The notes: generated by a model from the letters alone, not told the origin. DNA of 64,000 nt from Naegleria gruberi (GCA_000004985.1 GG738915.1), one strand, 5' to 3'; numbered from the stretch's first letter, positions 1,281 to 40,230 are shown. Numbers and translations are program-made.

Positions 1281-1353
1281 CGCCCCACGTGGGGCTCGAA
1301 CCCACGACCGTTGGATTAAAAGTCCAACGCTCTACCGACTGAGCTAGCGGGGC
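1281..1353 (-). tRNA. tRNA-Lys (anticodon UUU)
   Basis: Reverse complement GCCCCGCTAGCTCAGTCGGTAGAGCGTTGGACTTTTAATCCAACGGTCGTGGGTTCGAGCCCCACGTGGGGCG. It folds as a cloverleaf with anticodon loop CTTTTAA and T-loop GGTTCGAGC. A T-run follows on the coding strand (terminator). Confidence 0.9.
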
Positions 1354-11087: not shown

Positions 11088-13700
11088 ATGTCATCAACAT
11101 TGCCCTCCAAAACAACAGCAACAACGACGAGCAATGCATCTTCTAAAAACAATAACAACAATAACAACCAAACAAACAAGAGAGTACTGAGTGTTTCAAC
11201 CACCTCAACGACACCAACCATAAACATTGAACAAAACAATAGATCGAAAAAGTTGCCCTCCTTACTAATCTCTCGATCTGAGAGAAGTACAGATGATGAG
11301 GATCAACCTCAGGATAATTTCTACTACTCATCAAATAACAAGAACAATACGAACAATCATCAGAATCATCAGAGAAATAATGATGTCGTTCACCCGTTCA
11401 ATAATAATCACCATTCAAAAAAGAGCAACAATAGGAACGAGAGAGTCTTCACCTCGGTTGTTCCATCGAGTCCTTCATCACCATTAGCCTTGCCGAATAC
11501 GACACAGGGAAAGAAAATGCATGCCTTTGAGAATGATTTCAATAAGAGACAACAACAACAACGAGATGGAAGTGTTTCTGTTAGTGATGATGACTCTTCA
11601 CAAAAATCGCTTATTCCAGTACAGTTACTTGGTTTGCGATCAAAGACAATGACTGCTCTGATTATTACCTTTCTATTGATTATTGCCTTGTGTGTTATTG
11701 GATTGTCCATTTCGTTTGATTCGTCTTTTAGGAGTGTGGAAGAGAGAGAGGCAACCGATTCAATTCTCAAACTATCAAAAGCTCTACAAGATGATTACAC
11801 AATTCTAGCCAATCGATTATATGAATATGCTGCTTGGGATGATGTTTATAATGTATTACAGGAAGAGAGTGCAACAAAAGCACAAGATCTTCTCAAGTCA
11901 TTCTTCGCCTGTGAATACATGGATAGGGTAAATTTGAATTTTGCCATGTATTACTTGCCAAATGGAAGCTTTCTTACTGGACTTGGATGTTATAATCAAG
12001 TTGAGTTATCGGTCTTCCCAACAGAACTCACCAATTTGGATCTATCCTTTTTTTCTCAAGTTTACACACCCACAACAAGGATGAGAACGTACATGATTCC
12101 AACAATGACTGTTGAGGATTTACTGGAACAGAGTGGACAAACCAGACCCTCCACATCATCAAGTACCAATATTTTGATGGTCACTGTACAACCAACTCAA
12201 ACAACTGATAATACAGTTTCTAATGGTTTGGCAATCTTTGCAAGTTATATTACAATGAAACTATTGGAGGAAGAATCAAAGAGAGTTAGATTGTGTGCAA
12301 CTTTTTACAATGTCAATAATACAGAGGATAGAAAATATTTGGAAAAGTACTTTTCTCCTGCAAGTGGACAAACTTTGGATCAATATATTTCCCTACAAGC
12401 ATCTTCAATGGTGAGTCCAAATGATACCTGGACATTTAATGGACCTTTCAAAATGTTGGCAGGCTCAGTGAAAGACACGTCCAAAAGAAAATGTGTTAGT
12501 GATGATGATGGAGGTAAGAGAATTTCCTCATTCAAAATTTTGTCAGATTCCAATGGAGTGGGAAGAGTTGTGATGAGAACAGATCTTCCAAGAGATATCT
12601 ATAATCTTGGTTGGTATTCATTCCTCTATACAATTATTGCATTCCTCGTGTTGATTATTATTTTGACATTTTCAATTTTACTATTTGTGGAATTTGTAGT
12701 CTTGAGGAGAGTAATCAAGATTGGATCATTTGTGAGAAATGTTACCACTGAGAGCGACACTTCAAAGAGAATTCAAAAGATGGGAAGAGACGAGCTTGGA
12801 AATTTGTCTCGTGACATTAACAAAATGTTGGAAGCATTGGAATTTTCACAGGAAAAGCTTGCTCGTGACAATAGCTTAATGGAGAAGATTCTTGAAAGAA
12901 CAGCCCTCGAAGAAGAAAAGAGTCGTTGTCTATTGAATTCAATTACGGATTTTATTGCCACTGTGGAGTGTTCTACTGGTTTGATTGTGAGCATCAACTC
13001 ATCATTTGAAAATAAGGTTTTAAAGAAGAAACAAGTAACCAGCGATGATAATAAGGAAGTATTCGATATTTTCGAATATCTCAAAGAATTTTCTGACAAC
13101 AAACAATTATTGGAAAAATTGGACAAATTGTCACATACAGAGGAGAATTTTGATACAATGGTAACAACAGGTTTAGGTAGCAAGTACCCAGTCTCTATCA
13201 ATGTAAATAAGACCAAGATGACACTCAGAGAGGGACAAGTTGGAGAAGCTTTCATTGTAGTGATGAAAAACCTCTCCGAACAAAAGGATTTCAGAAATCT
13301 AGTTCAACAAGAGAAACTTTCTCAAATCCAACAAATTACCAAATTTGAAAAGATGATGAATGATCAAGATATGAGAAAACGATTCAGAGCTTTTGCAGAA
13401 AAGGAACAAAGCGTTGAAAACTTCCTCTTCTTGGAAGATATTGAAGTTTACAAATCACTGCCAACCACAAAGGAAAGAGCCATTCTCCAAGAAGCAATTA
13501 CAAAGAAATATCTGCAAAATGATAGTGAATTCCCACTCAATGTTTCACAAAAAGTATTAGAAACAGAGTATAAGAAAATTTCAATAGGTTATGGACAACT
13601 TTCTCTCTTTGATAGACTAGAAACCATTGTAAAGGGTATGATTTTAGGTGATACATTCCAAAGATTTATTGATCATGAACAAAATGAGCTCAATAAATAA
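11088..13700 (+). CDS. Receptor-like signalling protein: N/Q-rich N-terminus, then TM1, a ~310-aa extracytoplasmic sensor-like domain and TM2, then HAMP, a PAS-like region and a C-terminal RGS domain
   Basis: TM segments 'ALIITFLLIIALCVIGLSI' and 'YTIIAFLVLIIILTFSILLFVEFVVL'. The HAMP-like region is 'VLRRVIKIGSFVRNV...MGRDELGNLSRDINKMLEAL'. The RGS domain is 'FRAFAEKEQSVENFLFLEDIEVYK...FDRLETIVKGMILGDTFQRFI'. Confidence 0.75.
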   Translation: MSSTLPSKTTATTTSNASSKNNNNNNNQTNKRVLSVSTTSTTPTINIEQNNRSKKLPSLLISRSERSTDDEDQPQDNFYYSSNNKNNTNNHQNHQRNNDVVHPFNNNHHSKKSNNRNERVFTSVVPSSPSSPLALPNTTQGKKMHAFENDFNKRQQQQRDGSVSVSDDDSSQKSLIPVQLLGLRSKTMTALIITFLLIIALCVIGLSISFDSSFRSVEEREATDSILKLSKALQDDYTILANRLYEYAAWDDVYNVLQEESATKAQDLLKSFFACEYMDRVNLNFAMYYLPNGSFLTGLGCYNQVELSVFPTELTNLDLSFFSQVYTPTTRMRTYMIPTMTVEDLLEQSGQTRPSTSSSTNILMVTVQPTQTTDNTVSNGLAIFASYITMKLLEEESKRVRLCATFYNVNNTEDRKYLEKYFSPASGQTLDQYISLQASSMVSPNDTWTFNGPFKMLAGSVKDTSKRKCVSDDDGGKRISSFKILSDSNGVGRVVMRTDLPRDIYNLGWYSFLYTIIAFLVLIIILTFSILLFVEFVVLRRVIKIGSFVRNVTTESDTSKRIQKMGRDELGNLSRDINKMLEALEFSQEKLARDNSLMEKILERTALEEEKSRCLLNSITDFIATVECSTGLIVSINSSFENKVLKKKQVTSDDNKEVFDIFEYLKEFSDNKQLLEKLDKLSHTEENFDTMVTTGLGSKYPVSINVNKTKMTLREGQVGEAFIVVMKNLSEQKDFRNLVQQEKLSQIQQITKFEKMMNDQDMRKRFRAFAEKEQSVENFLFLEDIEVYKSLPTTKERAILQEAITKKYLQNDSEFPLNVSQKVLETEYKKISIGYGQLSLFDRLETIVKGMILGDTFQRFIDHEQNELNK

Positions 13701-21880: not shown

Positions 21881-21953
21881 CGCCCACCGTGGGGGTCGAA
21901 CCCACGACCACAAGGTTAAGAGCCTTGCGCTCTACCGACTGAGCTAGACGGGC
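21881..21953 (-). tRNA. tRNA-Lys (anticodon CUU)
   Basis: Reverse complement GCCCGTCTAGCTCAGTCGGTAGAGCGCAAGGCTCTTAACCTTGTGGTCGTGGGTTCGACCCCCACGGTGGGCG. Anticodon loop CTCTTAA. Terminator T-run downstream on the coding strand. Confidence 0.9.
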
Positions 21954-22123: not shown

Positions 22124-23572
22124 ATGCAAGACAATCCACCTTCAACAACCACACCGAAAGCGGAACCTGTTGAACAACAACAAGAGGAACAACCGGAGAC
22201 TGTTAGCATTGATGATAAAACAGTCTCAACATCAAATCAACAAGATATAACTAGGGATGAAGCTGCTTCATTGTATGATGATGTGTTATCATCGTCAAAT
22301 AATAATTCGAATGTTGAGAGTAATGTAACTGCAGAAGATGATTCGACAAATAATAATAATAATCAGGACAATGATCAAACAGGATCACTAGAAGGAGAAA
22401 AGGAACAACAAACAACACCTAGTACGAATAACTCTGTTGCGGATAGCAAGAATGAATCTAAAGAAAACACTAAGTCAAACAACACCACCGGCAAATATTA
22501 CAGCAATAATAATAATAACAGAGGCAACTTTAAAGGTGGAAGAGGATTCTATAATAATAACAACAATAGAGGATATTATAATAACAATAACAGAAATAAT
22601 TATAATAACAATAGCAGAGGAGGTTATAACAATAATAATAACAGAAATGGAGGTTATAACAACAATAGAGGAAACTACAATGATTACCAAGGCAATTCAT
22701 ACAACCAAGGCTCAAATGACCTCAAGAGAAATTATCAATCATACAACAATGGCAGTGGCAGTAGCAGTAGCAATAATAATAATAGAGGATATAACAATAA
22801 TAACAACTACAATGGTGAGCAATCGTACAATTATCAATCTTATGATAATAAGAGAAGAAGAGAAGATAACGCACCAGCTGCCACAAGTAGTACTACTGCG
22901 GATAACACTGAAAAACCATTGTCTGAAGTGAGAGGAGTAGCTGCTTTCTTATCAAAGGATTCACAAAATACTAGAAGTGGAGGAGATTTTAGAAACAACA
23001 ATTCAAAACAATATAATAATCAAGGAGGTTATCAAAATAAGCCATACAATAATAATCAAGGAAGTTATCAAAGTAATAACAATAATAGTACCAGCAATCA
23101 AGGATATAACAATAATCGTCCATACAATAATAATAATAATACCAACAACAACAAGACATATAACAACGATTATCAAAAGAACAGTGGCAACCAATTCCAA
23201 GATCGTTCAAACTGGGGAAATAGTGGAAATTCTTCTGATTTCCAACAAAGAAATTACCAATCACAATCATATGGTGGAGGATATAACAATACTAATAACA
23301 ATAATAGATATGAAAATGATTATAGAAAGGATGATGCTGATAGATCTAGAGGATATGATCAGCAGTATGGTGGCTATAAAAATGATTATAGAGTGGATTC
23401 AAATGTTCAAAGACAACAATACAACACACAACAATATCAAAATAATAATAATAATAATAATAATATTGAACCAGCTTTACCAAGTGGATGGAAGCAATAC
23501 TTTGATGATAAAACTGGTAAATATTATTATCATAATGAAAGAACGGACACAACACAATGGGAAAGACCATAA
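22124..23572 (+). CDS. Prion-like N/Y/G/R-rich low-complexity protein with C-terminal WW domain
   Basis: Long 'NNNNRGYYNNNNRNNYNNNSRGGYNN' tracts (RGG/YN repeats). C-terminal 'LPSGWKQYFDDKTGKYYYHNERTDTTQWERP' is a canonical WW domain. Confidence 0.7.
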   Translation: MQDNPPSTTTPKAEPVEQQQEEQPETVSIDDKTVSTSNQQDITRDEAASLYDDVLSSSNNNSNVESNVTAEDDSTNNNNNQDNDQTGSLEGEKEQQTTPSTNNSVADSKNESKENTKSNNTTGKYYSNNNNNRGNFKGGRGFYNNNNNRGYYNNNNRNNYNNNSRGGYNNNNNRNGGYNNNRGNYNDYQGNSYNQGSNDLKRNYQSYNNGSGSSSSNNNNRGYNNNNNYNGEQSYNYQSYDNKRRREDNAPAATSSTTADNTEKPLSEVRGVAAFLSKDSQNTRSGGDFRNNNSKQYNNQGGYQNKPYNNNQGSYQSNNNNSTSNQGYNNNRPYNNNNNTNNNKTYNNDYQKNSGNQFQDRSNWGNSGNSSDFQQRNYQSQSYGGGYNNTNNNNRYENDYRKDDADRSRGYDQQYGGYKNDYRVDSNVQRQQYNTQQYQNNNNNNNNIEPALPSGWKQYFDDKTGKYYYHNERTDTTQWERP

Positions 23573-23645: not shown

Positions 23646-24551
23646 CTATTTATTGTTTTTACTGAAAACACTTTTCCACTGTGAAAACTGAATTGTGGAG
23701 TTGCCTGTTTTCATAACTGTGTAGGATTTCTTGTTATTAAATGGTTCTTCGTCAAAATCAATACGGTTTGGATGATTAATAATTGGAAATGAGGATGGTT
23801 GTTTGAAAAAGAAACTATCTTCAACCATTGGACTATCAACTACATTGTTATCTTGGAGATGATTCAGTAATACATCATCCAATTTTGTTGCTGGTATGCA
23901 CTGCTCATCCAGGCTGCCAAGTATTCTCTGGAGTTGCTGAGGAGTTTTGGATACAAGAGATAAGGAACCAGATTCAGATTGTAATCTTCTACTCTTACAG
24001 GAGGGTTGAAATCTACGCTTAGTATTCTCCTCATATTGTAATGTGCTTGCCCTCAATAAACCTGTTTGTTTCTTTGATAATCTGTTGTGTGTTTTGCAGA
24101 ATTGATCAAATCTTGAATCAATTTCATGCTCCTTCTCCATTCTCTCAAAATCGAATGGTTGTCTTTGTTCGATCATTGATGTAGGCTTTTGAATTCTGTC
24201 CACTTGCTTTTCATTCAGGTTTACAAATTCACCATCAACACGAGAGGGTTGGTGTACTCGCAACATCATCTTCATTTGATCAATTTCTCTTTGTCTCTGT
24301 TGTGCTCTCTGTTTGAAAGTTTCCCTAGGGGTAGACCTTGATGGAGGAGGCATTTCAACTTGATTAGTTTCCTTTCCGCTTTCCACATTCCTAGCCTTGT
24401 CTTCATTATTCACCTTAGGAGAATTTCTTTCCACCATCCTCTCATCATTATCATAAACAGAGGTAGGCTCCACAATACTCAACTTCTTCTTCCAAAGGCT
24501 AGCCTTTTCTAATTGACTATTCATGTTGCTGTCAGCAGTCTCTTGAGGCAT
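23646..24551 (-). CDS. Hypothetical protein (301 aa), low complexity, no recognised domain
   Basis: ATG-initiated ORF with protein-like composition. Orphan. Confidence 0.4.
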   Translation of the reverse strand: MPQETADSNMNSQLEKASLWKKKLSIVEPTSVYDNDERMVERNSPKVNNEDKARNVESGKETNQVEMPPPSRSTPRETFKQRAQQRQREIDQMKMMLRVHQPSRVDGEFVNLNEKQVDRIQKPTSMIEQRQPFDFERMEKEHEIDSRFDQFCKTHNRLSKKQTGLLRASTLQYEENTKRRFQPSCKSRRLQSESGSLSLVSKTPQQLQRILGSLDEQCIPATKLDDVLLNHLQDNNVVDSPMVEDSFFFKQPSSFPIINHPNRIDFDEEPFNNKKSYTVMKTGNSTIQFSQWKSVFSKNNK

Positions 24552-24679: not shown

Positions 24680-27600
24680 TCAACAGTCGTTTAATAAACG
24701 TTCTTGATGTCTCTTGTTAAATTCAACATGGTCCAATAAGTGAGTGACAATATTTTGAGATTGTTGGGCTTCATAGTACAATGCTTCTTGGGGTGAGCTC
24801 TCTCTTTGAATATCTTGCTGTTCATCATGATCATCTGAGTATTCTTCGTCCATGAAAGATCTAGGGTGTGAAAAACTAAGACCTCTATTACTAAGTGTAT
24901 TATGTGAAATAGAGGAAGATCGACTATTGTAAAAGTCCTCCCTGGATGTGAATTTGGCAAGGACATTATTTTGGAAACGTTCAGCGTATGAAATTGGCTC
25001 CACACTACTGATACCATTTGGATCTTTTCTTAAAATCTTCGTTTTGATTAAAGTTTCCATCTTCTTATTCATGTCATAGAGCTGCAAAATATCAATTACA
25101 GAAGAGTACATGATGGCTGCTCTATTGTAAGGAGAATCCAAGTCTATAACTTGAATTCCTCCCTTATAAGTTTTGTGGAATGGCTCATAAAACTTAATCT
25201 CATTTGGTAAACTTTCCACACTAATAACAGCTGGGTCATCTTCAGCTAAACCTAGAAGGAGCGAATAATCCATAATCTTGAGAGATTTGAGAAAGTTGGA
25301 ATCAATAGTCAATTGTTGTTTGAATCTTTCATAAATTGCCTTATTTTCAAAAATTATTTTACGCTTTCTAGTAAAATCATTATCAAGTAATAACTTGTTT
25401 CTGTTTTGAACATGACTGGCATATGCATCCTCAGCATTGGATGTAGATTTGAATTTAAGAGTATTGGCATAACCATCAAAGGTAGGAAGGTTGTTTCTGT
25501 TAATCCAACTTCCTTTCAAGTCAAACTTGGTATAGACACTCATTGGATCATATTGTGCTCCACGATCCTTTGCTAATCTACAATTCAAAGCATTGTTAAT
25601 GACAATAAATTTGATTTTAAAGTTGGCTGTCATTTTCAATTCATAAATACCAAATATTTTCACAATAAATGTATCTCTAAATGTTGTGTAATGCTTGTAA
25701 AAGAATTGAATATTGTCCAATAGTAATTTCAATTCATCATCATTAATAGTCTTGATCATAAATTGAGAATCGTAAGTGAATAGGAAGAAACTACCTGACT
25801 TTCCTTCACTGAAATTATTTCTCACAGATTCCAACACTACAGAAGTTGGTTCAAAAGATCTCTTGTAAGATTCCATAATAGAATGAATATCTGCTGAACC
25901 AGTAAGATTATCAACAAAGTAGTAGCTTCTCAAGTGATGGAAAGCTGTTGGATAATACTCAGTGACACTAATCTTGTGTTTTGTAACAAGGTTGTAAAGT
26001 CCAGGATGTGTTTTGGATCTCAGAGATGGATGGAAGAGTTTCTTCATTAGTGGAGAACCGTACAGAGTATTTCTATGAGAGGTCAATTCAGATTCTGAAT
26101 AATTGAATTGTTTGATAATGTCTTCACATTCATGAGCTTGTTTCATACAGTGTTGAGTAGCCAACAAGACACAAAAAATCAAATCTCTTCTGACCATATA
26201 GTCAATGGCAACGTTTGAAAGAGAATCCTCAAAGAATTTTTGATCTTGTTGTGATAGATATTTCAAGAAACGTTCTTGGTCTGCTTCAGAACCCTCATCC
26301 ATAATACCTTCGAAGAGTAATCTTTGATGGTAAAGTGATTCCTTAGCTTTTTCAATGGCCATTCTTCTTCTAGAGAGAAGATCGAGTTCCTCATCCACAG
26401 CAACACCTTCCGCTAAAATGGAAGTATAGAGTGTTGAGCTTTTGATAACACCCTTCTTCTTGATTCTATCGAGAATATTTTGTCCCTCATCGTTTTCTGT
26501 AAGCATACAAAGAAAGTCCTTAAATTTCTTAATATGTCTCAAAATGATAGGATCTGAAAGTAAGATTAGTGACAAAATGAGACCTTCAATACTCGATACA
26601 ATAATTGAAATATTACGAGCAATAATTGTGAAAATAGTAATTCCAGCATCACTAAAGTCCTCCCCTTTTTGTTTCAATTCAGAAATCTTACCCTTCAAAA
26701 TAACACTTGAAAGTAAAGTTCCCAATAAAGAAATGCCAATAACACCACTGAAAATACATTGTCTAATAATGATACCATTTCTTAATTTTTGAGTACCTGG
26801 TAAACCTCTTCTCAAACTTGACCAAACATATAAACAAATACCAATACCTATAATGGCCATAATACCATTGATACCATAGATGGCATAACCAATATATAAT
26901 TCATCAGGAAGAATTGAACATGCCTGATTGTTTTGTGTTAGTGTACTCTCAACTACAGATCCTACAATTGCAAGAATGGTGAGTGTCCACATGCAAATAT
27001 GATACATGATGTGTTTTTTCTTATTTCCCTTGATGGGATTCGTAGCAACATTGAGTAAATCCAATACAATGCAAAATCCATAACAATATGAGCAAAAATT
27101 AAATCCATATTCGAATATAGCAACAACTATACACATGTTTGGTTCATAGATCGTCTCTGGAAAGTGTAAAATTAGCAATATGAGAAAGTGTTTCACGCAA
27201 CTGAGAGCTTCAGTGGCCAGAAAAGCCATAATGAGAGCAAAATTCTTTCTACCTCTCAATTCAGCAAGTCCAACAAAGGCCACCATCAATATGATACAAA
27301 AGCAAAAGCTTAATGCTGCAAACACCAATTCAAAATAGGAGCACACTCTTGCCAAGAGTGCTATCCTCATCATTAATAAATCCATGGTAGGATCAGTTGA
27401 ATTTGTTCCATTATTATTTGAAGAATTATCAAGTAATACCAAGTGTTCCATTGTTGTAAATTCATTTTTCCAAAATTCGTCAATTCCAATTTTAAAAGTT
27501 GCTGCACCTTTTCGAGAGTGAATGAATGAATCGTAATTATCATCATCCTGATGTTCCTCCTCCTCATGATCATCGTAATGAAAAGGCAGTGAATTAGAAG

Positions 27601-27964
27601 GGGTGGTAAATCGATCTCTAAACAGACTTGTCTTTAATTTGTTACTATACATTTGGTGAATAGAATTTTGATTTGATAAACTTGTATGATCCGGTGTTAA
27701 ATTATTGTTACTCGAAAGGCTAAGAGATGGTCGGATGATAACTACATGATGAAGAAATAATAAACATGAAAGGAGGAGAAGGAAAAGGACAATATACAAG
27801 GAGGTAGTCATGATTGTTGAAAAGGAACAGAATGATTTTGTTGATGAAGATGATGTACTAGTTATTCCGTCATTGCTATTCGCCTGTTGCTTTCCAGCAG
27901 CAACACTAACACAACAAGAAGAATCGGACTTGCTCGTTGTGAGTCTTGTTGGAGATGATGGCAT
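24680..27964 (-). CDS. GPCR-PIPK: 7TM receptor-like N-terminal region fused to a C-terminal phosphatidylinositol-phosphate kinase catalytic domain
   Basis: Multiple hydrophobic helices between residues ~200 and 480. The PIPK core is 'GKSGSFFLFTYDSQFMIKTI', 'IVKIFGIYELKM' and 'MDYSLLLGLAE'. Confidence 0.8.
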   Translation of the reverse strand: MPSSPTRLTTSKSDSSCCVSVAAGKQQANSNDGITSTSSSSTKSFCSFSTIMTTSLYIVLFLLLLSCLLFLHHVVIIRPSLSLSSNNNLTPDHTSLSNQNSIHQMYSNKLKTSLFRDRFTTPSNSLPFHYDDHEEEEHQDDDNYDSFIHSRKGAATFKIGIDEFWKNEFTTMEHLVLLDNSSNNNGTNSTDPTMDLLMMRIALLARVCSYFELVFAALSFCFCIILMVAFVGLAELRGRKNFALIMAFLATEALSCVKHFLILLILHFPETIYEPNMCIVVAIFEYGFNFCSYCYGFCIVLDLLNVATNPIKGNKKKHIMYHICMWTLTILAIVGSVVESTLTQNNQACSILPDELYIGYAIYGINGIMAIIGIGICLYVWSSLRRGLPGTQKLRNGIIIRQCIFSGVIGISLLGTLLSSVILKGKISELKQKGEDFSDAGITIFTIIARNISIIVSSIEGLILSLILLSDPIILRHIKKFKDFLCMLTENDEGQNILDRIKKKGVIKSSTLYTSILAEGVAVDEELDLLSRRRMAIEKAKESLYHQRLLFEGIMDEGSEADQERFLKYLSQQDQKFFEDSLSNVAIDYMVRRDLIFCVLLATQHCMKQAHECEDIIKQFNYSESELTSHRNTLYGSPLMKKLFHPSLRSKTHPGLYNLVTKHKISVTEYYPTAFHHLRSYYFVDNLTGSADIHSIMESYKRSFEPTSVVLESVRNNFSEGKSGSFFLFTYDSQFMIKTINDDELKLLLDNIQFFYKHYTTFRDTFIVKIFGIYELKMTANFKIKFIVINNALNCRLAKDRGAQYDPMSVYTKFDLKGSWINRNNLPTFDGYANTLKFKSTSNAEDAYASHVQNRNKLLLDNDFTRKRKIIFENKAIYERFKQQLTIDSNFLKSLKIMDYSLLLGLAEDDPAVISVESLPNEIKFYEPFHKTYKGGIQVIDLDSPYNRAAIMYSSVIDILQLYDMNKKMETLIKTKILRKDPNGISSVEPISYAERFQNNVLAKFTSREDFYNSRSSSISHNTLSNRGLSFSHPRSFMDEEYSDDHDEQQDIQRESSPQEALYYEAQQSQNIVTHLLDHVEFNKRHQERLLNDC

Positions 27965-28850: not shown

Positions 28851-28931
28851 CGCAGACTGCAGGATTCGAACCTACGAAGGTTTCCCCAACAGATTTCAAG
28901 TCTGTCGCCTTAACCACTCGGCCAAGTCTGC
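28851..28931 (-). tRNA. tRNA-Ser (anticodon UGA) with long variable arm
   Basis: Reverse complement GCAGACTTGGCCGAGTGGTTAAGGCGACAGACTTGAAATCTGTTGGGGAAACCTTCGTAGGTTCGAATCCTGCAGTCTGCG. Anticodon loop CTTGAAA. Variable arm 'TGGGGAAACCTTCGTA'. Confidence 0.9.
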
Positions 28932-29074
28932 TACATATATTTTCGCCATTTTTGCTTAAGGGCTCCACTACAATCACATGGATTAATTTTTTTGCTCATT
29001 TTGTTCTCTTTAGAATTTCCTTTTTCGGAGAGATATCATGAATACAACTGATAACTTTTTTGTTAACAATGTAT

Positions 29075-29147
29075 GCGCAAGTAGATCAGTGGTTAGATCG
29101 TCCGCCTCACACGCGGAAGGTCGCGGGTTCAAACCCCGCCTTGCGTA
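29075..29147 (+). tRNA. tRNA-Val (anticodon CAC)
   Basis: GCGCAAGTAGATCAGTGGTTAGATCGTCCGCCTCACACGCGGAAGGTCGCGGGTTCAAACCCCGCCTTGCGTA. Anticodon loop CTCACAC. Followed by 'aaaatttta' T-run. Confidence 0.9.
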
Positions 29148-29228
29148 AAATTTTATTGGGAAAAATCATTTTATTTTCAAGCATGTTTTTTGCTATTATT
29201 TTCCAATGCAAACAGTGTGAAAAGTTTA

Positions 29229-32200
29229 TTAGAGAACAAAGTTTAATGTGGAAACAACCAAAGCAATCATCAATACACCAACCATCTTCAAAGAATGAGA
29301 ATGTGAAATAATAGAAGCTCTTGGAACTTGTGGGCTTGAAAATCCACTCACTGAATTGGAGGCACCTGGCTGAACAGTAGTATCAGGTTCAACAGTTGGA
29401 TCTGCAGAAGGTCTTGTCTCTGTGGCAACATCAAAGAACAATGAGGAAACCTTAATTGGATCCTTGTCTGGACTTTCTGAAACACCACATGTAGAAACAG
29501 AGCCCCATTTCTTAATTTCACCTGATGTGATAAATCTGGAGGTTTCTTCTTGTCCCTGATCACCAATAAATCTTACATTATCCACAATCAAATCTCTGTA
29601 CGGACTTGTAGCAGTGATGGTACCAGAGAAATAGAAGGAAAATCTTTGGAATTGTTGAACTCCTGTAAAACTCAAGTCAGAGAGTGGAATTCTAACTCTT
29701 GTGAGACGAGTTTCATCAATCTTGTAGAATTGAGTATAGGTGCTGTTAGTTGTCAGAGTTTTGATTGTTGTAAATTGTTTGGTATTTGAATTGTAAGAAG
29801 CAAAGCTCATTGTCAATTCAAAAGAGCCACTGCTATTAGTTTCTCTCACAAAGAATTCGAAATACTTGTAAATGGAAGTATCAACAGCAAAAGAAGTGTA
29901 TCTGTACAATTGTAATCCACCTCTTCTGAAACTCATGTAGAATGATGAGCTTCCACATACTGGATTAATAGAGTAGGATGTATTCGAAACTACATAATCA
30001 CCACTACCTGAATTGGAATAGACTTGTGCAGTAAATCCAGTTGACTTGGAAGGATCTCCATCATTGTACAGATACAAGGCCTCTGACTCATTCTTTACAA
30101 CACAAGGTGAAGTAGTAATAACAAATGGTGGTAAATTACAAGTTCCACTACAATACAATTGGGCTCTCAAATGTCCCTTTGGATTTTCAGAACTTGAAAC
30201 CTTTACAAAAATTCTTCCTTTCAACAAGTCAACCCATTCACCATGAGATAATTGTAAACCAAATCTACTTTGAGAATATGGAGATGGAACATAGGAATAT
30301 GAAATAATTCTTTCAACAGAACCAACGGATCCAACACCCACTTCAACAAGAGTTGCCTTGTCATTCATATTATGATGCAGAATCAAATCTAACATCTTGT
30401 CATTGTAATTGAGAAAACCAAAAACTGTACCAACTGCACTACTCGATCCAGATGCTAGTGGAGTAATGGAATTTTGTTGACACATTTCCAATCGACCAAC
30501 AAATCTATCTTCCTTCAAGAAAACTCTGTAGGTTTCTCTTGGATTTTCTGGAAGACTTGGATTGGCAGTTCCACAATAATTATTTGGACAAGTGGCAGTG
30601 ATAACAATATCTTTAGAGTTACTCCATGAACCATAATCAACAAATCCATACCATTCCTTCTTATTATTTTTGGAATAGGTATTTTCAAATTTGATATACA
30701 AGTGACCAGTAGTAGAATTGAATATTATATTATGATAATATTCAGTTGGATAATTGACAACGTCTTGGAATGAATTGGACAATTTCAAAGTCTTTGGATC
30801 TGATGTAGAGGTTATAGAGAATTTAGAACCTTTTGGATATTGAATGACCATGACAACCCAATCGCCAGAAGCTGAAGATTGCATTTGTAAACTCATTGGG
30901 TTTGGAGGAGGAAGATCAAAAGCATATTTCATGGCATAGAAACCACGTGATGGAACATTGGATTGCATATAGAAAGTTCCACCAGAAGACATTCCACCAG
31001 CAGTACTTGTTTGGATGTTTCTAGTGAGGTCTGTAAGGTACATTCTTGGAATTCTTGTATTGTAGGAAATATATTCTGGATGGGAAATACCATATGGATC
31101 GATGATTACAGAACTAGTAATATTGTAATTCAAAGCTCTAAATTGAACGTAGGATTCACCAATAAATGGACAAACAGAGGCGTTGTTCCACTCTGATCTA
31201 ATTTCACAACCTTCAAAGTTTTGAATTGCATCATTACCACTAATCCATGCACCAGCAGCAACACCAGTGATCGATCCATCTATATCCATGAAAACAGCAC
31301 CCTTTCACAATATCTATTTCTGGTATGGAGCTTGAAATAATTGTCAAGATAGGACAATGCACCAGCTCTTCTATATTGATCAGTGACAAAGTTTCTAAAA
31401 GTCACATTTCTCAACAATTCAGCACCGCCGTTATCATAAGTTTCATAACCCTTAATGACCACAGTTGTTGAGGCATATAAATTTGGTCTTGTTCTATTTC
31501 CCTTATCAACATTTGGTCTCAAAGTATAGTCTCCAATATTATCCGATTCTCCAATCATGATTGAATCGGTAATGTATGAAGTACCAGGTGGAGAATTCAT
31601 CTGTCTCATATTATCAGTCAAGTACAAGTTTTTGAAAACGATATTTCCACAACGAGCCCAAATTCCATAATTTCTCAACTTGTAAGCTGTGAAATTATCA
31701 ATGAGAGCCTCAATAGATGGATAGTAACCAGCTTGTTCAGTTGTGCCATCAGCTTTTTCCATATCATCCATGAATAGTCCATTATGTCCACTGTGAGCTA
31801 CATTTCCTGAAAATGGTTTAGGTGGAGCAGTTCTTGGATTGATAGAACCTGGGGCGTACAATGAGGCACTGGCACCTGTTGGGAAAGTTGGCCTAAATAA
31901 GAATTAAAAACACTTAGGTGATCATGAATATTTTGTAAAAAACTTACATTCTAATAACAATTTGAAAATTAATCAAGTAATAAAGATGATAACTTACGTA
32001 AACCAATAGCAATGCTTTCCACCAACAGCATGATTATCAATGAATGAATTGTTTGGATTGGTAATCCAGAAAACAGCAACTTCACTATCAGATGGAATCA
32101 AACGATACGTCAAATCATAAACAGGTTTTGGACGAATTCCCAAATTATGCTTGAACACATTACCTAGTTCAGAACCATCCTCCAAAAAGTATTCATGACC

Positions 32201-33277
32201 AATAGCATTGAAACAGACATTATCTTCAAGAAGGAAATAATTAGTATCATGAACCACATAACATCTCTGGAATGAATCATGAACAGAACATCCCCTAATA
32301 TAGTATTGAGTGCCAAATGTTGAGTTTTGTGCAGTATTTTCCAGGAGGTGAAGATGGAATGAATATCTTCCCATCAAGCCATATTGACCAAACTTTCTAA
32401 TTTCAATTCCTTCAACTTGAAATTGAGTAACCAAACGAACCATGAAATGACCACCGAATTGTGAAACATCAGATGAGTTGTCACCTTGGAAGATAATTCT
32501 TCTGGAGAGTAAACCAACTTCAGGTCTAATTTCAGCACCATTGCTGTAGTGAGTATAATTGAGTGGAGAATCTAATACAATGGTTTTACCACCGTCTAAA
32601 ACTTGAGTAATGACACGTTCTTCGTTTTGATCAGGGAAGTAATTACCAATTTTCCAATTGACCAATGATGAGCTAACTAATCTATAATCATAAACTTCAC
32701 CATAATCTGATGAGGCAATAACAATAGAGTCGCCAACTCTCCATGATACGCTTTCCCTCAACTTGATTTGATTAGAACCTTTCTTTGCAGTTACAGCAAG
32801 ATCAGTAAAAGTTGGTGAGTCAACTTGACCAAAGATTTGAACCTTGGATCCAGATAAGAAACCAATACCCTTTGAACCCATGTTAACGTTATCAAAAGGA
32901 TCGATACCAATTTCACTTTCTGTAGTGCGAGAACCATAGAATGTCAAAATAATCTTGTTAGTAATTGGACATGTGGCACTTCCCATGATCCAGCTAGCAC
33001 CACTTTCAACTCGAATGTAATCTACATGCAAAGTTAAATTGGCATTATCGAAAATGAGAGAACCACCAGATAGTACAGTAATACTGCGAAGTTTGTAAGG
33101 AGGAGATTTATCAACCTTGACAGCTTTGTTAATAGTAATTTGACTGTTGGCAACTGAAAAACCAGACAAAGAACTGAACAAAGTAAGACCGCTTTCAGCA
33201 TGTGGACAATTGGTTTGACAACATGCTAAACATGCAAGTGCAAGAATAGTAACAACTAGTGTCAGTAATCTTGACAT
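29229..33277 (-). CDS. CEMIP/TMEM2-like secreted or type-I membrane protein (signal peptide, G8 domain, parallel beta-helix PbH1 repeats, GG-type domain, Ser/Thr-rich stalk, C-terminal TM anchor). Exons about complement(join(29229..31289,31290..31892,31998..33277)) with an unresolved frame change near 31290.
   Basis: Signal peptide 'MSRLLTLVVTILALACLACC'. Matches to human CEMIP/TMEM2: 'GDSIVIASSDYGEVYDY', 'EIRPEVGLLSRRIIFQG', 'NAIGHEYFLEDGSELGNVFKHN', 'VFWITNPNNSFIDN', 'FTAYKLRNYGIWARCGNI', 'FMDIDGSIT...CEIRSEWNNASVC'. The 105-nt intron 31893..31997 (GTAAGT/AG) joins 'KHCYWFT|PTFPTG'. The C-terminal 'MVGVLMIALVVSTLNFVL' is a TM or GPI-like tail. Confidence 0.75.
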
Positions 33278-34645: not shown

Positions 34646-36607
34646 TCAATTACCAAAATCCAATGGATAGTAACCAACATGATATAGTGGTTCTCTTAGT
34701 GTTGTGTCCTCTAATTTAAATTTCAAATGTTTCTCTGTGCAGTTCAGTAAATGTTCTTCCACTTCTTTGGTTGGATATTCTTCCTTACAACAAGGACAAA
34801 CAGAAAGAGTTCTCAACTGATTGGTATTTTTCTTGCACAGATCAGGTAGATTGTGACAAGTTGCCAAATGTCCAGTTATTAACCGTCTTGGAAAAACCTT
34901 TAAACATCCAGGGCAAGAAATCTCTGCTTCTTGCAGAGCTTGTTTAAATTCCTTTCTCTGTTCTATAATAATGTCGATATCTTGGTCGTAATCAATTTGA
35001 GCCAATGCAGAATTATCATTTGAAATTCTTGGTTTAGTACGAAAAACAAGTTTTGGAATTCTCTCCAGTTGAAGAATTGTTTCATTGTATAGATTAGGTA
35101 ATTTCTTCAATGAGACCCAGCACATTCTCAATGGTTCATCAAGTGTTGTCTTGAGCAAGCTTTCATTTTCAAGAAATTCCATGTATGGGAATGTGAATAA
35201 CAATTTTGAAAGGTTTTTGTAATTTCTTGAAAGAGCAGAAATCAACTCGAAATATTTCACCTCATCATCAGAACCTTGATGTTCATAAAAAGATATTCTA
35301 AAGGTTTCCAGATGAATCATTCCTGAAATGGATTCTCTTACAAGATGACAATCCTTCGACTTGACATCTTCCAATACCAAATGTTTCACATTAACAAATC
35401 CAGAAACGAAAGAACCCAATCTAATTTTCGAAAAAGTATCTCCAATAATCCTTATATACAATTCCTCAATCATTCCTCCAACGCCTCCATAATCAAATGG
35501 AATATTTTGCATTAAGTTTGATTTGAAAAATTCCAATCCCAATGTTAATCTTCTCAATTGTGGATTATTGGCAAGATTTTTACAAAGCTTTTCGAGCGCA
35601 TTTCGAATATCCTGTTCCGTAAGATGTCTTTCAAGGAATTCAGTTGTTATATTATAATCTACCACCCTACTCTTCTCATTGAACACTTCTTTAGCTAATA
35701 ACCCAAAATCTCTTCTATTACTTTTACAAACCAGTAAATTATTACGTGATTCATTATATTCAAACTCTTGCTTGTCATAAAAGTAGAAATTCTCTGAAAA
35801 GTACAAATATTCGAAATGTCCAGAACCGTACCGAGGCAATCTAGTATTGTCAATGACTGCAATTTTTGATTTCATCAAAATATCTCTCAATAAATCCCCA
35901 CTAGAATCCCCAATTACATTTGAAAGTGAAACAAGCTCAGTATCTTTACAAATTTTAACCAACTCTCCCATGGTTTCAACATCCATACTTTCCCATAACT
36001 GTTCTCCATATGGAGATGTTCCATTATTAAACAAGTTAAGTGTAAATCTTCGAAGAGCTGGCTCAGTTAAACTATTTGGAATGTAACCACCTTTCAAACT
36101 CTGCAGTCTTGTGAAAAATTCAATTGATTCTCTCTGTGCTCTATTTGGAATGAAAACTTTCTCATTCCTTGCCAGTGGATTCAAGTTTCCGAATAGACGA
36201 AACTGTTTTCTGCAAATAATATCTTCAATTTGACCATTGATGAATAAATATTTGATTGTCATTCGATTCGATTGGACAAACTTGATCGTGTATCGAACAA
36301 ATGGCAATAGATTTGTTTGAACATTAGTTTCTGTCATGACATTTGGTTGTTCTTCTTCAGATAGGAGCTGGACATTCGGATAGAAATGTAGAGTTTCTAA
36401 TTTTTCAATGACTAATCTTCGCCATGATGAACAAACATGTGGAATAACTTTGATCAACAGGTGAAAATCAAGGTATGGAAATAATCGATAGAAAGCAACT
36501 TCTTCTGGTACCTGTTGATGAAAATACATTTTTTTTAATTGTGTCATATGAACCTTTCGAATATTGTAATAAACGAATCTAAGAAATAATTCAATGGCAT
36601 TGAACAT
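34646..36607 (-). CDS. F-box protein with C-terminal TRAF-like/C2HC zinc-finger region
   Basis: F-box 'VPEEVAFYRLFPYLDFHLLIKVIPHVCSSWRRLV'. C-terminal 'CPGCLKVF...HLATCHNLPDLC...CPCCKEEYPTKEVEEHLLNC'. Confidence 0.55.
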   Translation of the reverse strand: MFNAIELFLRFVYYNIRKVHMTQLKKMYFHQQVPEEVAFYRLFPYLDFHLLIKVIPHVCSSWRRLVIEKLETLHFYPNVQLLSEEEQPNVMTETNVQTNLLPFVRYTIKFVQSNRMTIKYLFINGQIEDIICRKQFRLFGNLNPLARNEKVFIPNRAQRESIEFFTRLQSLKGGYIPNSLTEPALRRFTLNLFNNGTSPYGEQLWESMDVETMGELVKICKDTELVSLSNVIGDSSGDLLRDILMKSKIAVIDNTRLPRYGSGHFEYLYFSENFYFYDKQEFEYNESRNNLLVCKSNRRDFGLLAKEVFNEKSRVVDYNITTEFLERHLTEQDIRNALEKLCKNLANNPQLRRLTLGLEFFKSNLMQNIPFDYGGVGGMIEELYIRIIGDTFSKIRLGSFVSGFVNVKHLVLEDVKSKDCHLVRESISGMIHLETFRISFYEHQGSDDEVKYFELISALSRNYKNLSKLLFTFPYMEFLENESLLKTTLDEPLRMCWVSLKKLPNLYNETILQLERIPKLVFRTKPRISNDNSALAQIDYDQDIDIIIEQRKEFKQALQEAEISCPGCLKVFPRRLITGHLATCHNLPDLCKKNTNQLRTLSVCPCCKEEYPTKEVEEHLLNCTEKHLKFKLEDTTLREPLYHVGYYPLDFGN

Positions 36608-37140: not shown

Positions 37141-40100
37141 TTAATGCATAGCTTGGCTGTGGATCATGTTGGACACGGAATGGACATTGAAAAGGTTGTA
37201 AATCAGCTCAATGTTTGCTGTTCGAATGGTGTTGAAAGATTCCAAATCTTTGAGCCATTTCTGTAGAGTTTCAATAATGGTATGCTCATCGTCTGGTTTA
37301 TACAATCCAACAGATATGCCAATCTTGAACTTGTTGATAAAGTTTTCCAGTGTTGTGTCTGGTTGATGATGCAGGGCAATGATTGCATTCTGTGTGGCCA
37401 TTGATTGAAATACAATTGGTGGAATGGAAACTTGTGAAGTGCTTTGGACACCACACGAGTCACTAAATAGATTCACATGAGAATAGGGAGAGAAGAGTCG
37501 AAGGTACTTTTTGAGAGTTCTACTACTTGCCTTCTTTCCTGGCTTGACAAAGAGGATTCTATCAGGATGTTTGGAAGTGAGCTCTTCAATCATTGAGAAT
37601 AGTTTGATGGTGTTATGAGTTTTAGATTCCTTTTCATTTCTGTCCTCAGGGAAAATGTCAAGATTGTAAGATAATTTCTTATCGGTGAGAAGAAGGAATT
37701 TCACTCTTTCAAGATGTTCGCTCTCCAAAATATATTTGATGATTTTAAAGACATCAGAATCACATCTACTCTTGTCCTCATCTGAAATCCAATAACTGAT
37801 TATCAAATCCTTTGAATTCTCGTCGAAATTCAGAATATCTTTCGAACCAATAAGAGTAAAGTCTTCTTCGTTAACATTCACCAAATAGTCGAGCTTCTTA
37901 TCAGATGGCTTGACACGGAACTCTGCCAAATTGACCAATGAAGGATACAGAACACTAGTCTTCTCAGATTTGATTTCAATAAGACTTGATAACTGAGTCA
38001 AGTCTGGAGAAGAGAGGAAGGTCTTGTAAACGAGATCATTATGTTTTACACTCTCAGTTATGTACTTGTTGGTGTTTGATGTGTAAATATAATCCAAAAC
38101 TCTAGTAAACTCCATCAATTGAGGAGGTAATAAAGATAATGACTTGTAACCAAGAATGCTTTCCATTATGAAAATATTATGAATATGTCTTGTAGAAATG
38201 ACATATTGAATTAGTAGGGAGAGTACATGTTCATCTGGAGGCAAAGTTTTGTCAACAAAATGATTCAGATGGAAAATATCTGTCGAATATCTTTCCAATT
38301 CTGCACGATAGGCATGATTTGATTCTTCTGTGTCAGTAGTTATTACAACCACGTGCCAGTCGTACTCAAATATAAATGATTCCATGAGTTTAACTATGAA
38401 TTCTCTTCTTCTTGGGTCATTTAAATTTTCTGAGACCAGAATGATTGATCTATCTTTACCCTTGTGGAATTTGTGACGATCATGAGCCAGTCTCCTCAGA
38501 ATTGTCTTTGAGTTTGGAATTTTAACTTTGGTAGTGAGGTATCCTCTGCTTTGCAGCTCTTTTGCTGCCTTCTCCTCAAACATGGTCTTGTATCTCTTTT
38601 TCAGATGTGTGCTGATAAATTTCTTTTCCTCTGACTTTTCAGTGGTTACTCTATCAGAATCCTTTTCCTTCCCTTGAATATTGTGCCAAAGCAAAACTTC
38701 TGGAATGGTCCATGAACGATAGCCTTTTTGGATATATTTCACCCAAAAATCCCAAATAACTAATGAGTATTCCATAGGATTAGAATTAAATCCTCCTAAT
38801 TTTTCAAAAACTTGTTTCTCAATCATAAAGGTGGAATGGAACAAGTTCTTTTGTGTTAACATTTGGGCAGACTCCTGTACTCGATACAGATTGAAGAATT
38901 TCATCTTATCAAATTCTAGTGTCATTGTATTCACCATAGTAATAGGTGTGGATGTGGAGAGTGTTTGGAATTCCAAGAAGAGAAATAATTTCTCAAGCAA
39001 AGAAGGTTCAATCATGCCCCCTGACTCTACAAATGTTAAATACCTCGATTCTTTTGCTAAATATTTACATGCTACAATTTTGAGCATTCCTTGTGATTGC
39101 TTCTCATTTGAAAAGATGAGAGAAATCTTGTTTGTTTTGTACATTTTTCCAATATCTATTGGTGTTTCTTTTTCCACTGTTGGATTGATAGAGAGCCACC
39201 TTAATATCTTATCATGAGGCTCGCCTTGGTTTACAATGATAATCCACTCAAAATATCTAAATGTTTGTCTCAATATTGAGTCTCGTGTGTTCTTGAAGGA
39301 ATCTTCATTTGAAAAAGTAGTAATTACAGAAACTAGAGGAGTATCCTTTCCTAAATGATTATTATTGAATTTGTGAACACTAATTTTCTCTTTGGAATAG
39401 ATTCTATAGTTGGATATTGGAGTATTTTGAAATAAAAATTCATCATATGGCATGACTGGCAGTATCGAGTCCATTTGTTCGAAATATGAAGTATGATTTT
39501 TAGAGTTGACATGTTTAGAAATTATTGAATGGTGTTTTGATTTGACAGTCTTTTTTGAATTTCCTTGTTGATGCTTGCCTCTCAAAATATGTCCATGTGA
39601 ATGAACAGTATCTTTTTGTTGAGTAGCAACTTCCTTATGAATAGGTAGACCCTTGTCATCTTTTGAAATTACAGTCTCTGTTCTATATATTGAAATAAAT
39701 CCTGAAATGAGTAGAAACATCAAAATGATTACAAGTAAGAAGGCAGTAAGTGTGCATTCCACTTTTTCAGGTCTTTCTTTCAGCATTTTAGTTTCATCAA
39801 TTGTATTTCTCTTTCCTCTCTTACTCTTTTTTGCTGGTTTTGAATTAAACCTCTTCATGACGCTCCTATTTCTGTTTGTTGAAGAGTATGAGAAGGAAGT
39901 TCCTCTTTCCACATCGTAATCGTCATCATCATCGTCATCACCATCTAAAGTAATAAAACTTCCTCTTCCTCTAGGTAGATAATCATCACCATCCGAATCA
40001 TCAAACTCCTCCTCTCCACTCGAATTTGTATAATTTTGATAATCTTGATCATCCATGATATTAATTCCCAAATCAACTTCTCTCATTTCTTCGTCATCAT

Positions 40101-40230
40101 CGGAATCATCCACTCCATCATCCCTCCTCTTTTTAAATAACTGTTTATGAATATCAACCTTCCTTTGAGTTGTCGAAGAAGCAGAAGAACCTCCACGAAC
40201 AAACGAAGGAGGACCAAAACCTTGAAACAT
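37141..40230 (-). CDS. Type II membrane glycosyltransferase (acidic N-terminal tail, one TM, GT2-like catalytic module and a second GT-like C-terminal module)
   Basis: TM 'LTAFLLVIILMFLLISGFISIY'. GT2-like 'VSVITTFSNEDSFKNTRDSILRQTFRYFEWIIIVNQGE'. Large 1029-aa single exon. Confidence 0.55.
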   Translation of the reverse strand: MFQGFGPPSFVRGGSSASSTTQRKVDIHKQLFKKRRDDGVDDSDDDEEMREVDLGINIMDDQDYQNYTNSSGEEEFDDSDGDDYLPRGRGSFITLDGDDDDDDDYDVERGTSFSYSSTNRNRSVMKRFNSKPAKKSKRGKRNTIDETKMLKERPEKVECTLTAFLLVIILMFLLISGFISIYRTETVISKDDKGLPIHKEVATQQKDTVHSHGHILRGKHQQGNSKKTVKSKHHSIISKHVNSKNHTSYFEQMDSILPVMPYDEFLFQNTPISNYRIYSKEKISVHKFNNNHLGKDTPLVSVITTFSNEDSFKNTRDSILRQTFRYFEWIIIVNQGEPHDKILRWLSINPTVEKETPIDIGKMYKTNKISLIFSNEKQSQGMLKIVACKYLAKESRYLTFVESGGMIEPSLLEKLFLFLEFQTLSTSTPITMVNTMTLEFDKMKFFNLYRVQESAQMLTQKNLFHSTFMIEKQVFEKLGGFNSNPMEYSLVIWDFWVKYIQKGYRSWTIPEVLLWHNIQGKEKDSDRVTTEKSEEKKFISTHLKKRYKTMFEEKAAKELQSRGYLTTKVKIPNSKTILRRLAHDRHKFHKGKDRSIILVSENLNDPRRREFIVKLMESFIFEYDWHVVVITTDTEESNHAYRAELERYSTDIFHLNHFVDKTLPPDEHVLSLLIQYVISTRHIHNIFIMESILGYKSLSLLPPQLMEFTRVLDYIYTSNTNKYITESVKHNDLVYKTFLSSPDLTQLSSLIEIKSEKTSVLYPSLVNLAEFRVKPSDKKLDYLVNVNEEDFTLIGSKDILNFDENSKDLIISYWISDEDKSRCDSDVFKIIKYILESEHLERVKFLLLTDKKLSYNLDIFPEDRNEKESKTHNTIKLFSMIEELTSKHPDRILFVKPGKKASSRTLKKYLRLFSPYSHVNLFSDSCGVQSTSQVSIPPIVFQSMATQNAIIALHHQPDTTLENFINKFKIGISVGLYKPDDEHTIIETLQKWLKDLESFNTIRTANIELIYNLFNVHSVSNMIHSQAMH

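What the first reader, a model, noticed from the sequence alone, without database searches (positions are those of the whole stretch)
24680..27964. GPCR-PIP kinase fusion gene
A 1094-aa single-exon protein combines a multi-helix receptor-like membrane domain with a complete PIPK catalytic core ('GKSGSFFLFTY', 'MDYSLLLGLAE'). GPCR-PIPKs are a rare, lineage-restricted architecture (Dictyostelium RpkA, oomycetes and a few other protists). They couple a receptor directly to PI(4,5)P2 synthesis. Its presence is lineage-informative.
Basis: partly seen in the sequence, partly recalled or inferred. Interest (0 to 1): 0.55.

Follow-up and report, generated by a model that had tools for sequence, protein, structure and literature searches.

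The report
Naegleria receptor–lipid kinase fusion gene

Summary
Window 24680..27964 (-) is one uninterrupted 1094-codon ORF. It encodes an N-terminal hydrophobic segment, a ~110-aa acidic ectodomain with N-glycosylation sequons, seven transmembrane helices plus helix 8, a ~220-aa linker and a complete PIPK domain (Pfam PF01504, E 1.6e-53).

All kinase motifs are intact. The activation loop carries the type-I glutamate (E970), which predicts PI4P to PI(4,5)P2.

The protein matches N. gruberi XP_002670481.1 / UniProt D2VZQ3 at 100% identity. That model starts at Met52 (1043 aa). Van den Hoogen et al. 2018 (mBio, Table S2b) list it as the one GPCR-PIPK of N. gruberi. The finding is therefore already known.

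Three nuances remain. The start codon is unsettled (M1 or M52), so a topology predictor may return 8 helices or signal peptide plus 7. The diagnostic LR(x)9GI motif is degenerate here (VRRDLIFCVLLAT). An ortholog also exists in Willaertia magna. Ligand, G-protein coupling and catalytic activity are untested for this protein.

The parts
24680..27964 (-). Maximal ORF, 1094 aa plus stop codon (stop at 24680-24682); intronless GPCR-PIPK gene
   Evidence: ORF; 100% identity to N. gruberi XP_002670481.1 over 95% of the ORF
27809..27811 (-). Met52, the start codon of the public gene model (1043 aa, D2VZQ3)
   Evidence: The MTT start is aligned in the N. fowleri-like protein (P0002) and in the unnamed metagenome ortholog P0004
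27725..27802 (-). N-terminal hydrophobic segment, residues 55-80 (SLYIVLFLLLLSCLLFLHHVVIIRPS). It is a signal peptide if translation starts at M52, or a signal anchor (eighth helix) if it starts at M1
   Evidence: Kyte-Doolittle 2.78
27392..27715 (-). Predicted extracellular/luminal N-terminal region, residues 84-191. It is acidic and poorly conserved, with three N-x-S/T sequons (NSS, NGT, NST) just before TM1
26558..27391 (-). Seven-transmembrane receptor domain, residues 192-469. Helices: TM1 192-232, TM2 242-273, TM3 275-308, TM4 315-343, TM5 358-383, TM6 392-432, TM7 440-469. The family-invariant cysteines are C278 (start of TM3) and C349 (ECL2)
26501..26551 (-). Amphipathic helix 8 after TM7, residues 472-488 (PIILRHIKKFKDFLCML)
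26156..26194 (-). Degenerate LR(x)9GI linker motif, residues 591-603 (VRRDLIFCVLLAT)
   Evidence: same position and R-x-[DE]-[LIV]-x-x-C core in the homologs; motif defined in PMC5784254
24965..25825 (-). PIPK catalytic domain, residues 714-1000. Motifs: G-loop GKSGSFF 721-727, K738, DLKGS 815-819, MDYSLL 898-903, IDIL with D958
24995..25075 (-). Activation loop, residues 964-990, with KK 967-968 and the type-I specificity glutamate E970
   Evidence: E970 is invariant in the four heterolobosean orthologs aligned
24683..24964 (-). Poorly conserved Ser/acid-rich C-terminal tail, residues 1001-1094

Best explanation
This is the Naegleria gruberi GPCR-PIPK gene (XP_002670481.1 / EFC37737.1 / UniProt D2VZQ3). 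It is the single heterolobosean counterpart of Dictyostelium RpkA and of the oomycete GPCR-PIPKs (type IV PIPKs). SHOWN: one polypeptide carries an N-terminal hydrophobic targeting segment, a short sequon-bearing ectodomain, a 7TM bundle with a GPCR fold and helix 8, a linker with the family's LR(x)9GI-type motif in degenerate form, and a PIPK domain with every catalytic motif intact. The loop charge pattern places the N-terminus outside (or in the lumen) and the kinase in the cytosol. INFERRED: the kinase phosphorylates PI4P at the 5-position to give PI(4,5)P2, because the activation loop has the Glu/KK signature of type I enzymes. This would happen in the very membrane where the receptor sits. 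A ligand-induced change in the 7TM bundle would be passed through helix 8 and the conserved linker to the kinase, either bypassing or complementing heterotrimeric G proteins. By analogy with RpkA, the site of action may be endosomes or phagosomes rather than the cell surface, with a role in phagocytosis. No ligand, G-protein partner or enzyme activity has been demonstrated for this protein or for any family member.
Against: Pfam's own GPCR models do not reach threshold on this protein (7tm_2: 12.8 bits against a 20.6 cut-off), so GPCR status rests on fold and on transitive homology. The strict LR(x)9GI motif is not met (V...AT instead of L...GI). My NJ tree of kinase domains has a weak backbone and does not by itself prove placement in a type IV clade. 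Reviews state that catalytic activity, ligand sensing and mode of action of GPCR-PIPKs remain untested (PMC6033456; PMC5784254). Substrate specificity is inferred from one residue by analogy with mammalian enzymes.
Confidence: 0.85

Rival explanations
1. The 7TM domain is not a ligand-gated receptor. It is only a membrane anchor or sorting module that places a constitutively active PIP kinase on a particular compartment such as phagosomes. There would be no ligand and no G-protein coupling.
For: RpkA is on endosomes and phagosomes, not the plasma membrane, and its PIPK domain binds the V-ATPase (PMC3206951). No ligand or G-protein partner is known for any GPCR-PIPK (PMC6033456). The ectodomain is short and poorly conserved even within Naegleria.
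Against: Loop and helix residues typical of a working receptor are conserved across distant lineages. These include the C278/C349 cysteine pair at the positions of the canonical TM3-ECL2 disulfide, P310/H322/W326, and the ICL3 R-x-G-L...R motif. The linker motif between receptor and kinase is also conserved. A mere anchor would not need this. The P. sojae GPCR-PIPK knock-down reduces chemotaxis to daidzein (PMC6033456).
Confidence: 0.2
2. The kinase domain has a specificity other than PI4P 5-kinase (type II-like PI5P 4-kinase or type III-like PI3P 5-kinase), or it is a pseudokinase that acts as a scaffold.
For: Type IV PIPKs form their own branch, separate from types I-III (PMC5784254). No enzyme assay exists. 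PDB sequence hits score slightly higher for type II than for type I enzymes.
Against: All ATP-, Mg- and lipid-binding motifs are intact and invariant among the four heterolobosean orthologs. The specificity position is Glu (E970), as in type I, not Ala as in PIP4K2A. The only type III hit is marginal (E 0.0024).
Confidence: 0.07
3. It is a gene-model or assembly artefact: two neighbouring genes (a GPCR and a PIPK) read as one ORF.
For: No transcript evidence was examined here. The linker is long (~220 aa), and its first AF2 model was of low confidence.
Against: There is no stop codon in 3285 nt of AT-rich DNA. The same collinear protein occurs in a N. fowleri-like sequence, N. lovaniensis, an unnamed metagenome relative and Willaertia, with a strongly conserved linker. 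The same fusion occurs in distant lineages.
Confidence: 0.01

Closest known systems
[quoted passage not shown] 2018 (PMC5784254, Table S2b)
   Same: Identical sequence over residues 52-1094. It is the same gene.
   Different: The public model starts at Met52 (1043 aa). The ORF in the window extends 51 codons further upstream to another ATG. The GenBank product name does not mention the receptor half.
Dictyostelium discoideum RpkA (DDB_G0283615), the founding GPCR-PIPK
   Same: Same order of parts: 7TM, LR(x)9GI linker, PIPK. The receptor domains are homologous (hhalign 97.9%, E 5.6e-13, 19% identity over 246 columns). The TM3/ECL2 cysteines and the N-P motif after TM3 are shared.
   Different: RpkA (828 aa) has no long N-terminal ectodomain or extra hydrophobic segment. 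Its motif is the canonical LRNNILTCSLRGI, against VRRDLIFCVLLAT here. RpkA function (phagocytosis, Legionella defence, cell-density sensing) was studied experimentally. Nothing has been tested for the Naegleria protein.
Oomycete GPCR-PIPKs (Phytophthora GK1-GK12; type IV PIPKs)
   Same: Same architecture and linker motif position.
   Different: Oomycetes have families of at least 9 paralogs; Naegleria has one. Canonical LR...GI is present in all 223 oomycete proteins.
Type I PIP5K (e.g. zebrafish/human PIP5K1A, PDB 4tz7) and type II PIP4K (PDB 6ux9, 1bo1)
   Same: Same catalytic fold and motifs. The activation-loop KK and Glu are as in type I.
   Different: Those are soluble peripheral enzymes without a membrane domain. 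Only ~25-30% identity.
Class B1 (secretin-type), Smoothened and class A GPCRs of animals
   Different: 9-17% identity. No Pfam GPCR model reaches threshold. The two structure methods disagree on the nearest class, so no class assignment is justified. A recent survey treats GPCR-PIPK 7TMs as a family of their own (bioRxiv 10.1101/2025.04.15.649019).

Membership tests
GPCR-PIPK (type IV PIPK, RpkA family) | N-terminal domain of seven transmembrane helices with a GPCR fold, N-terminus out and C-terminus in | tested here: met
GPCR-PIPK (type IV PIPK, RpkA family) | The 7TM domain is itself homologous to that of other GPCR-PIPKs | tested here: met
   A receptor-plus-linker profile of residues 195-700 (upstream of the Pfam kinase match) recovered distant proteins that carry C-terminal PIP5K domains. 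hhalign against RpkA plus 6 published members gave 97.9% and E 5.6e-13.
GPCR-PIPK (type IV PIPK, RpkA family) | C-terminal PIPK catalytic domain on the same polypeptide | tested here: met
   PF01504 E 1.6e-53, residues 714-1000, in one ORF.
GPCR-PIPK (type IV PIPK, RpkA family) | LR(x)9GI motif in the linker between the 7TM and PIPK domains | tested here: inconclusive
   A 13-residue motif lies at the expected place (591-603) with the conserved Arg, acidic residue and Cys. It reads VRRDLIFCVLLAT, so L is replaced by V and GI by AT. Other Naegleria have VR...GT and Willaertia has IR...AT. The 2018 catalogue does not flag the motif as absent in this protein, and it notes 9 of 60 non-oomycete members lack it.
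GPCR-PIPK (type IV PIPK, RpkA family) | Kinase domain groups with type IV rather than type I/II/III PIPKs in phylogeny | tested here: inconclusive
   NJ tree, 55 sequences, 100 bootstraps. The heterolobosean clade has 100% support. It lies among sequences with upstream TM or LRxGI features and outside a 74%-supported clade of proteins with no upstream TM segment or LRxGI motif, which includes the plant PIP5Ks. The backbone support is below 50%. The published ML tree used this sequence.
GPCR-PIPK (type IV PIPK, RpkA family) | Ligand sensing, G-protein coupling and regulated lipid kinase activity | not testable with these tools
   No experiment exists for any family member according to PMC6033456.
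Catalytically competent PIPK with type I (PI4P 5-kinase) specificity | G-loop, catalytic Lys, DLKGS, MDYSLL and IID Asp; activation-loop KK and specificity Glu (E362 of PIP5K1beta against A381 of PIP4K2beta; residue numbers from my own knowledge of Kunz et al.) | tested here: met
   GKSGSFF 721-727, K738, DLKGS 815-819, MDYSLL 898-903, D958, KK 967-968 and E970. PIP4K2A has Ala at the E970 column. The enzyme activity itself cannot be tested here.
Pfam 7tm_2 (secretin-family GPCR) | Score at or above the curated gathering threshold (20.6 bits) | tested here: not met
   12.8 bits, E 0.07. Not filed as a class B GPCR, although distant GPCR-PIPK relatives do pass it (P0007, 54.7 bits).

The most novel reading that the evidence does not exclude
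The heterolobosean GPCR-PIPKs may be a distinct structural variant of the family. The variant would have an obligatory extra N-terminal membrane segment (8 membrane passes, or a cleaved signal peptide), a glycosylated ectodomain and a re-written linker motif (V/I-R...A/G-T). It would act as a phagosome or food-cup receptor kinase. Because the family is absent from animals other than sponges, the N. fowleri ortholog would then be a selective drug target.
Probability: 0.2. Interest if true: 0.4.

Novelty: already known. Interest (0 to 1): 0.12.

Why it matters
GPCR-PIPKs join a receptor directly to phosphoinositide synthesis, and their presence in Discoba is one argument that the fusion dates back to the last eukaryotic common ancestor. 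That point, and this very gene, were published in 2018. This analysis adds independent confirmation: fold, receptor-domain homology, intact catalytic and specificity residues, and topology. It also adds small annotations (start-codon ambiguity, degenerate LR(x)9GI, a Willaertia ortholog). The open questions about the family (ligand, G-protein dependence, real substrate, location) are experimental, and this sequence alone does not make them easier to test.

Tried and rejected
(1) The search for homologous proteins with residues 195-700 returned nothing, not even the protein itself. This is apparently a limit of the word-candidate step on hydrophobic sequence. The full-length query returned only four Naegleria-type proteins, and the kinase-domain query listed only proteins shorter than ~545 aa.

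(2) The first AF2 run, with a 4-sequence alignment of residues 195-700, gave pLDDT 46. It was not used for fold search. A 14-sequence alignment of residues 185-500 solved this.

(3) A Biopython bootstrap tree of about 100 sequences timed out. I replaced it with a numpy-distance NJ tree of 55 sequences. Its backbone is weak, so I do not claim type IV placement from it.

(4) Foldseek against afdb50 was not available.

(6) The literal 'LRNGI' at residues 394-398 is not the LRxGI motif. It lies in intracellular loop 3, not in the linker.

(7) Sequence context of the two candidate start codons does not decide between M1 and M52, because both have A at -3.

(8) A literature search for a CHASE/RGS protein in Naegleria found nothing.

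Full report
OBSERVATION. The window holds one ORF at 24680..27964 on the minus strand. Pfam PIP5K (PF01504) matches residues 714-1000 at E 1.6e-53. The best GPCR model (7tm_2) reaches only 12.8 bits, below its 20.6-bit cut-off. Sequence search of the PDB finds PIP4K2A/B/C and PIP5K1A (E 3e-13 to 1e-9). Kyte-Doolittle analysis gives one strongly hydrophobic segment near the N-terminus (residues ~55-80) and seven more between 200 and 475.

SOURCE AND PRIOR KNOWLEDGE. The protein matches a Naegleria gruberi entry at 100% identity. [quoted passage not shown] Collinear orthologs, 54-63% identical over the aligned regions, exist in three places: a protein clustering with N. fowleri XP_044564374.1, N. 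lovaniensis, and an unnamed metagenome sequence (P0004). A more distant ortholog occurs in Willaertia magna (KAL9652835.1).

Van den Hoogen et al. 2018 (mBio, PMC5784254) searched eukaryotes for GPCR-PIPKs. They report one each in N. gruberi and N. fowleri (Table S1), and Table S2b lists D2VZQ3_NAEGR with this very sequence. The gene and its interpretation are therefore already published.

THE RECEPTOR HALF. Pfam alone does not establish a GPCR, so I tested this in three ways.

(i) Homology. I built a profile of residues 195-700 from the four heterolobosean sequences. This stretch lies upstream of the Pfam kinase match. I searched it against 1.84 billion representative proteins. Besides the orthologs it found 13 distant proteins (E 3e-8 to 1e-3), aligned over TM1-TM5. 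Six of those, seven counting Willaertia, are full-length and carry a C-terminal PIP5K domain. Most of the short ones match the 7tm_2, Dicty_CAR or Frizzled models above threshold. A profile-profile comparison with the N-terminal 400 residues of RpkA and six other published GPCR-PIPKs gave 97.9% probability and E 5.6e-13 over 246 columns, from TM1 to the end of TM7.

(iii) Topology. Lys plus Arg number 16 in the three predicted intracellular loops and the post-TM7 stretch, against 4 in the extracellular loops. Three N-x-S/T sequons sit just before TM1. Two cysteines invariant across the 14-sequence alignment (C278 at the start of TM3, C349 in ECL2) occupy the positions of the canonical GPCR disulfide. 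The kinase is therefore cytosolic.

THE EXTRA HELIX AND THE START CODON. The hydrophobic segment at residues 55-80 precedes a ~110-residue acidic, poorly conserved region. If translation starts at M52, as in the public model, this segment looks like a signal peptide. If it starts at M1, it is a signal anchor. In the N. fowleri-like protein (P0002) and in P0004 the corresponding hydrophobic segment lies about 60 residues inside the protein, so it is an anchor there. Either way the ectodomain faces out and the 7TM topology is unchanged. A topology predictor could, however, report 8 helices. The sequence context of the two ATGs does not decide between them.

THE LINKER. The family's diagnostic LR(x)9GI motif is present at the expected position, residues 591-603, but in degenerate form: VRRDLIFCVLLAT. 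Other Naegleria have VR...GT and Willaertia has IRRDLIFCILFAT. The distant homologs and RpkA have LR...G[IL]. The literal 'LRNGI' at 394-398 is in intracellular loop 3 and is unrelated to this motif.

THE KINASE HALF. Alignment with human PIP4K2A (PDB 6ux9), plant and apicomplexan PIP5Ks and other GPCR-PIPKs shows every functional motif intact. These are the G-loop GKSGSFF, K738 (IKT), DLKGS, MDYSLL, D958 (IDIL) and the activation-loop KK at 967-968. The position 12 residues after the IID aspartate is Glu (E970). It is invariant in the four heterolobosean orthologs aligned. It is Glu in the type-I-like sequences and Ala in PIP4K2A. From my own knowledge of the Kunz et al. activation-loop swap experiments, this residue sets PI4P against PI5P preference. 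The predicted product is therefore PI(4,5)P2.

An NJ tree of 55 kinase domains places the heterolobosean clade (100% support) among sequences with upstream TM or LRxGI features. It lies outside a 74%-supported clade of proteins with no upstream TM segment or LRxGI motif, which includes the plant PIP5Ks. The backbone is weak, however, so type IV placement rests on the published tree.

MECHANISM. Shown: the architecture, the fold, the topology and catalytic competence at sequence level. Inferred: the protein is a membrane-embedded PI4P 5-kinase whose activity is governed by the 7TM domain through helix 8 and the conserved linker.

In Dictyostelium, RpkA sits on endosomes and phagosomes and binds the V-ATPase through its PIPK part. 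Its loss reduces PIP and PIP2, impairs phagocytosis and allows more Legionella growth (PMC3206951). A phagocytic amoeba such as Naegleria may plausibly use its ortholog the same way. N. gruberi has over 30 G-alpha subunits and 229 RGS genes, so G-protein coupling is possible but untested. The field states that ligand, catalytic activity and mode of action are unknown for the whole family.

The main rival is that the 7TM part is only a sorting anchor. Conservation of the receptor-type residues and of the linker argues against this, but does not exclude it. An artefactual fusion and a dead kinase are both effectively excluded.

VERDICT. The feature is a known gene of a known family, so novelty is 'already known' and interest is low. 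The small additions are the unresolved start codon and extra membrane segment, the degenerate linker motif, and the Willaertia ortholog.

SURROUNDINGS. The window is ordinary gene-dense N. gruberi DNA. It holds a Polo-like kinase, LRR and F-box proteins, VWA proteins, a mitochondrial carrier, a WW-domain protein, a CEMIP/G8-like gene, a C9orf72-like protein, a class II aminoacyl-tRNA synthetase, a GMC oxidoreductase, actin and four tRNA genes. The one item worth a separate look is a TM-CHASE4-TM-HAMP-like-RGS protein at 11088..13700.

Noticed in passing
window 11088..13700 (+): An 870-aa ORF with a bacterial-style sensor layout fused to a eukaryotic RGS domain. The order is an N/S-rich N-terminus, TM (190-208), CHASE4 (PF05228, E 1e-8, residues 232-406), TM (516-534), a sub-threshold HAMP match (557-585, E 0.002) and RGS (PF00615, E 1e-13, residues 752-863). 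It looks like a receptor-type GAP for G-alpha. N. gruberi has 229 RGS genes (PMC3971589), but I found no paper describing a CHASE-RGS fusion.
   Followed up: partly
window 28851..28931 (-) and 29074..29148 (+); also 1281..1353 (-) and 21881..21953 (-): Four tRNA genes. tRNA-Ser(UGA) and tRNA-Val(CAC) lie divergently in the 1.26-kb spacer between the GPCR-PIPK gene and the next gene. tRNA-Lys(UUU) and tRNA-Lys(CUU) lie elsewhere. ARAGORN and Rfam agree.
   Followed up: yes
window 29229..33277 (-): Three consecutive minus-strand ORFs (31994..33277 with G8 plus CEMIP beta-helix, 31280..31861, and 29229..31289 with a weak CEMIP_X match and a C-terminal hydrophobic tail). They look like one CEMIP/TMEM2-like gene split by short introns or frame changes.
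   Followed up: no
window 23646..24551 (-): A 301-aa ORF with no Pfam match starts only 128 bp downstream of the GPCR-PIPK stop codon, on the same strand. It is not part of the public GPCR-PIPK model.
   Followed up: no
window 22124..23572 (+): A 482-aa protein that is almost entirely Asn/Gly/Tyr/Gln low-complexity sequence, ending in a single WW domain (E 2e-12) at its extreme C-terminus.
   Followed up: no
window 43852..45693 (+): A 613-aa ORF with a C9orf72-like domain (PF15019, E 5e-17). It is a homolog of the human ALS/FTD-linked DENN-type protein in a heterolobosean.
   Followed up: no
window 34646..36607 (-) and 37141..40230 (-): Two large ORFs (653 and 1029 aa) with no Pfam match at E <= 0.001.
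   Followed up: no
protein P0005 (Willaertia magna KAL9652835.1), found with the window's receptor profile: A full-length GPCR-PIPK ortholog (977 aa, E 3e-117, PIP5K domain at 605-891, motif IRRDLIFCILFAT). It extends the family within Heterolobosea beyond the two Naegleria species listed in 2018, and it is annotated only as 'hypothetical protein'.
   Followed up: partly
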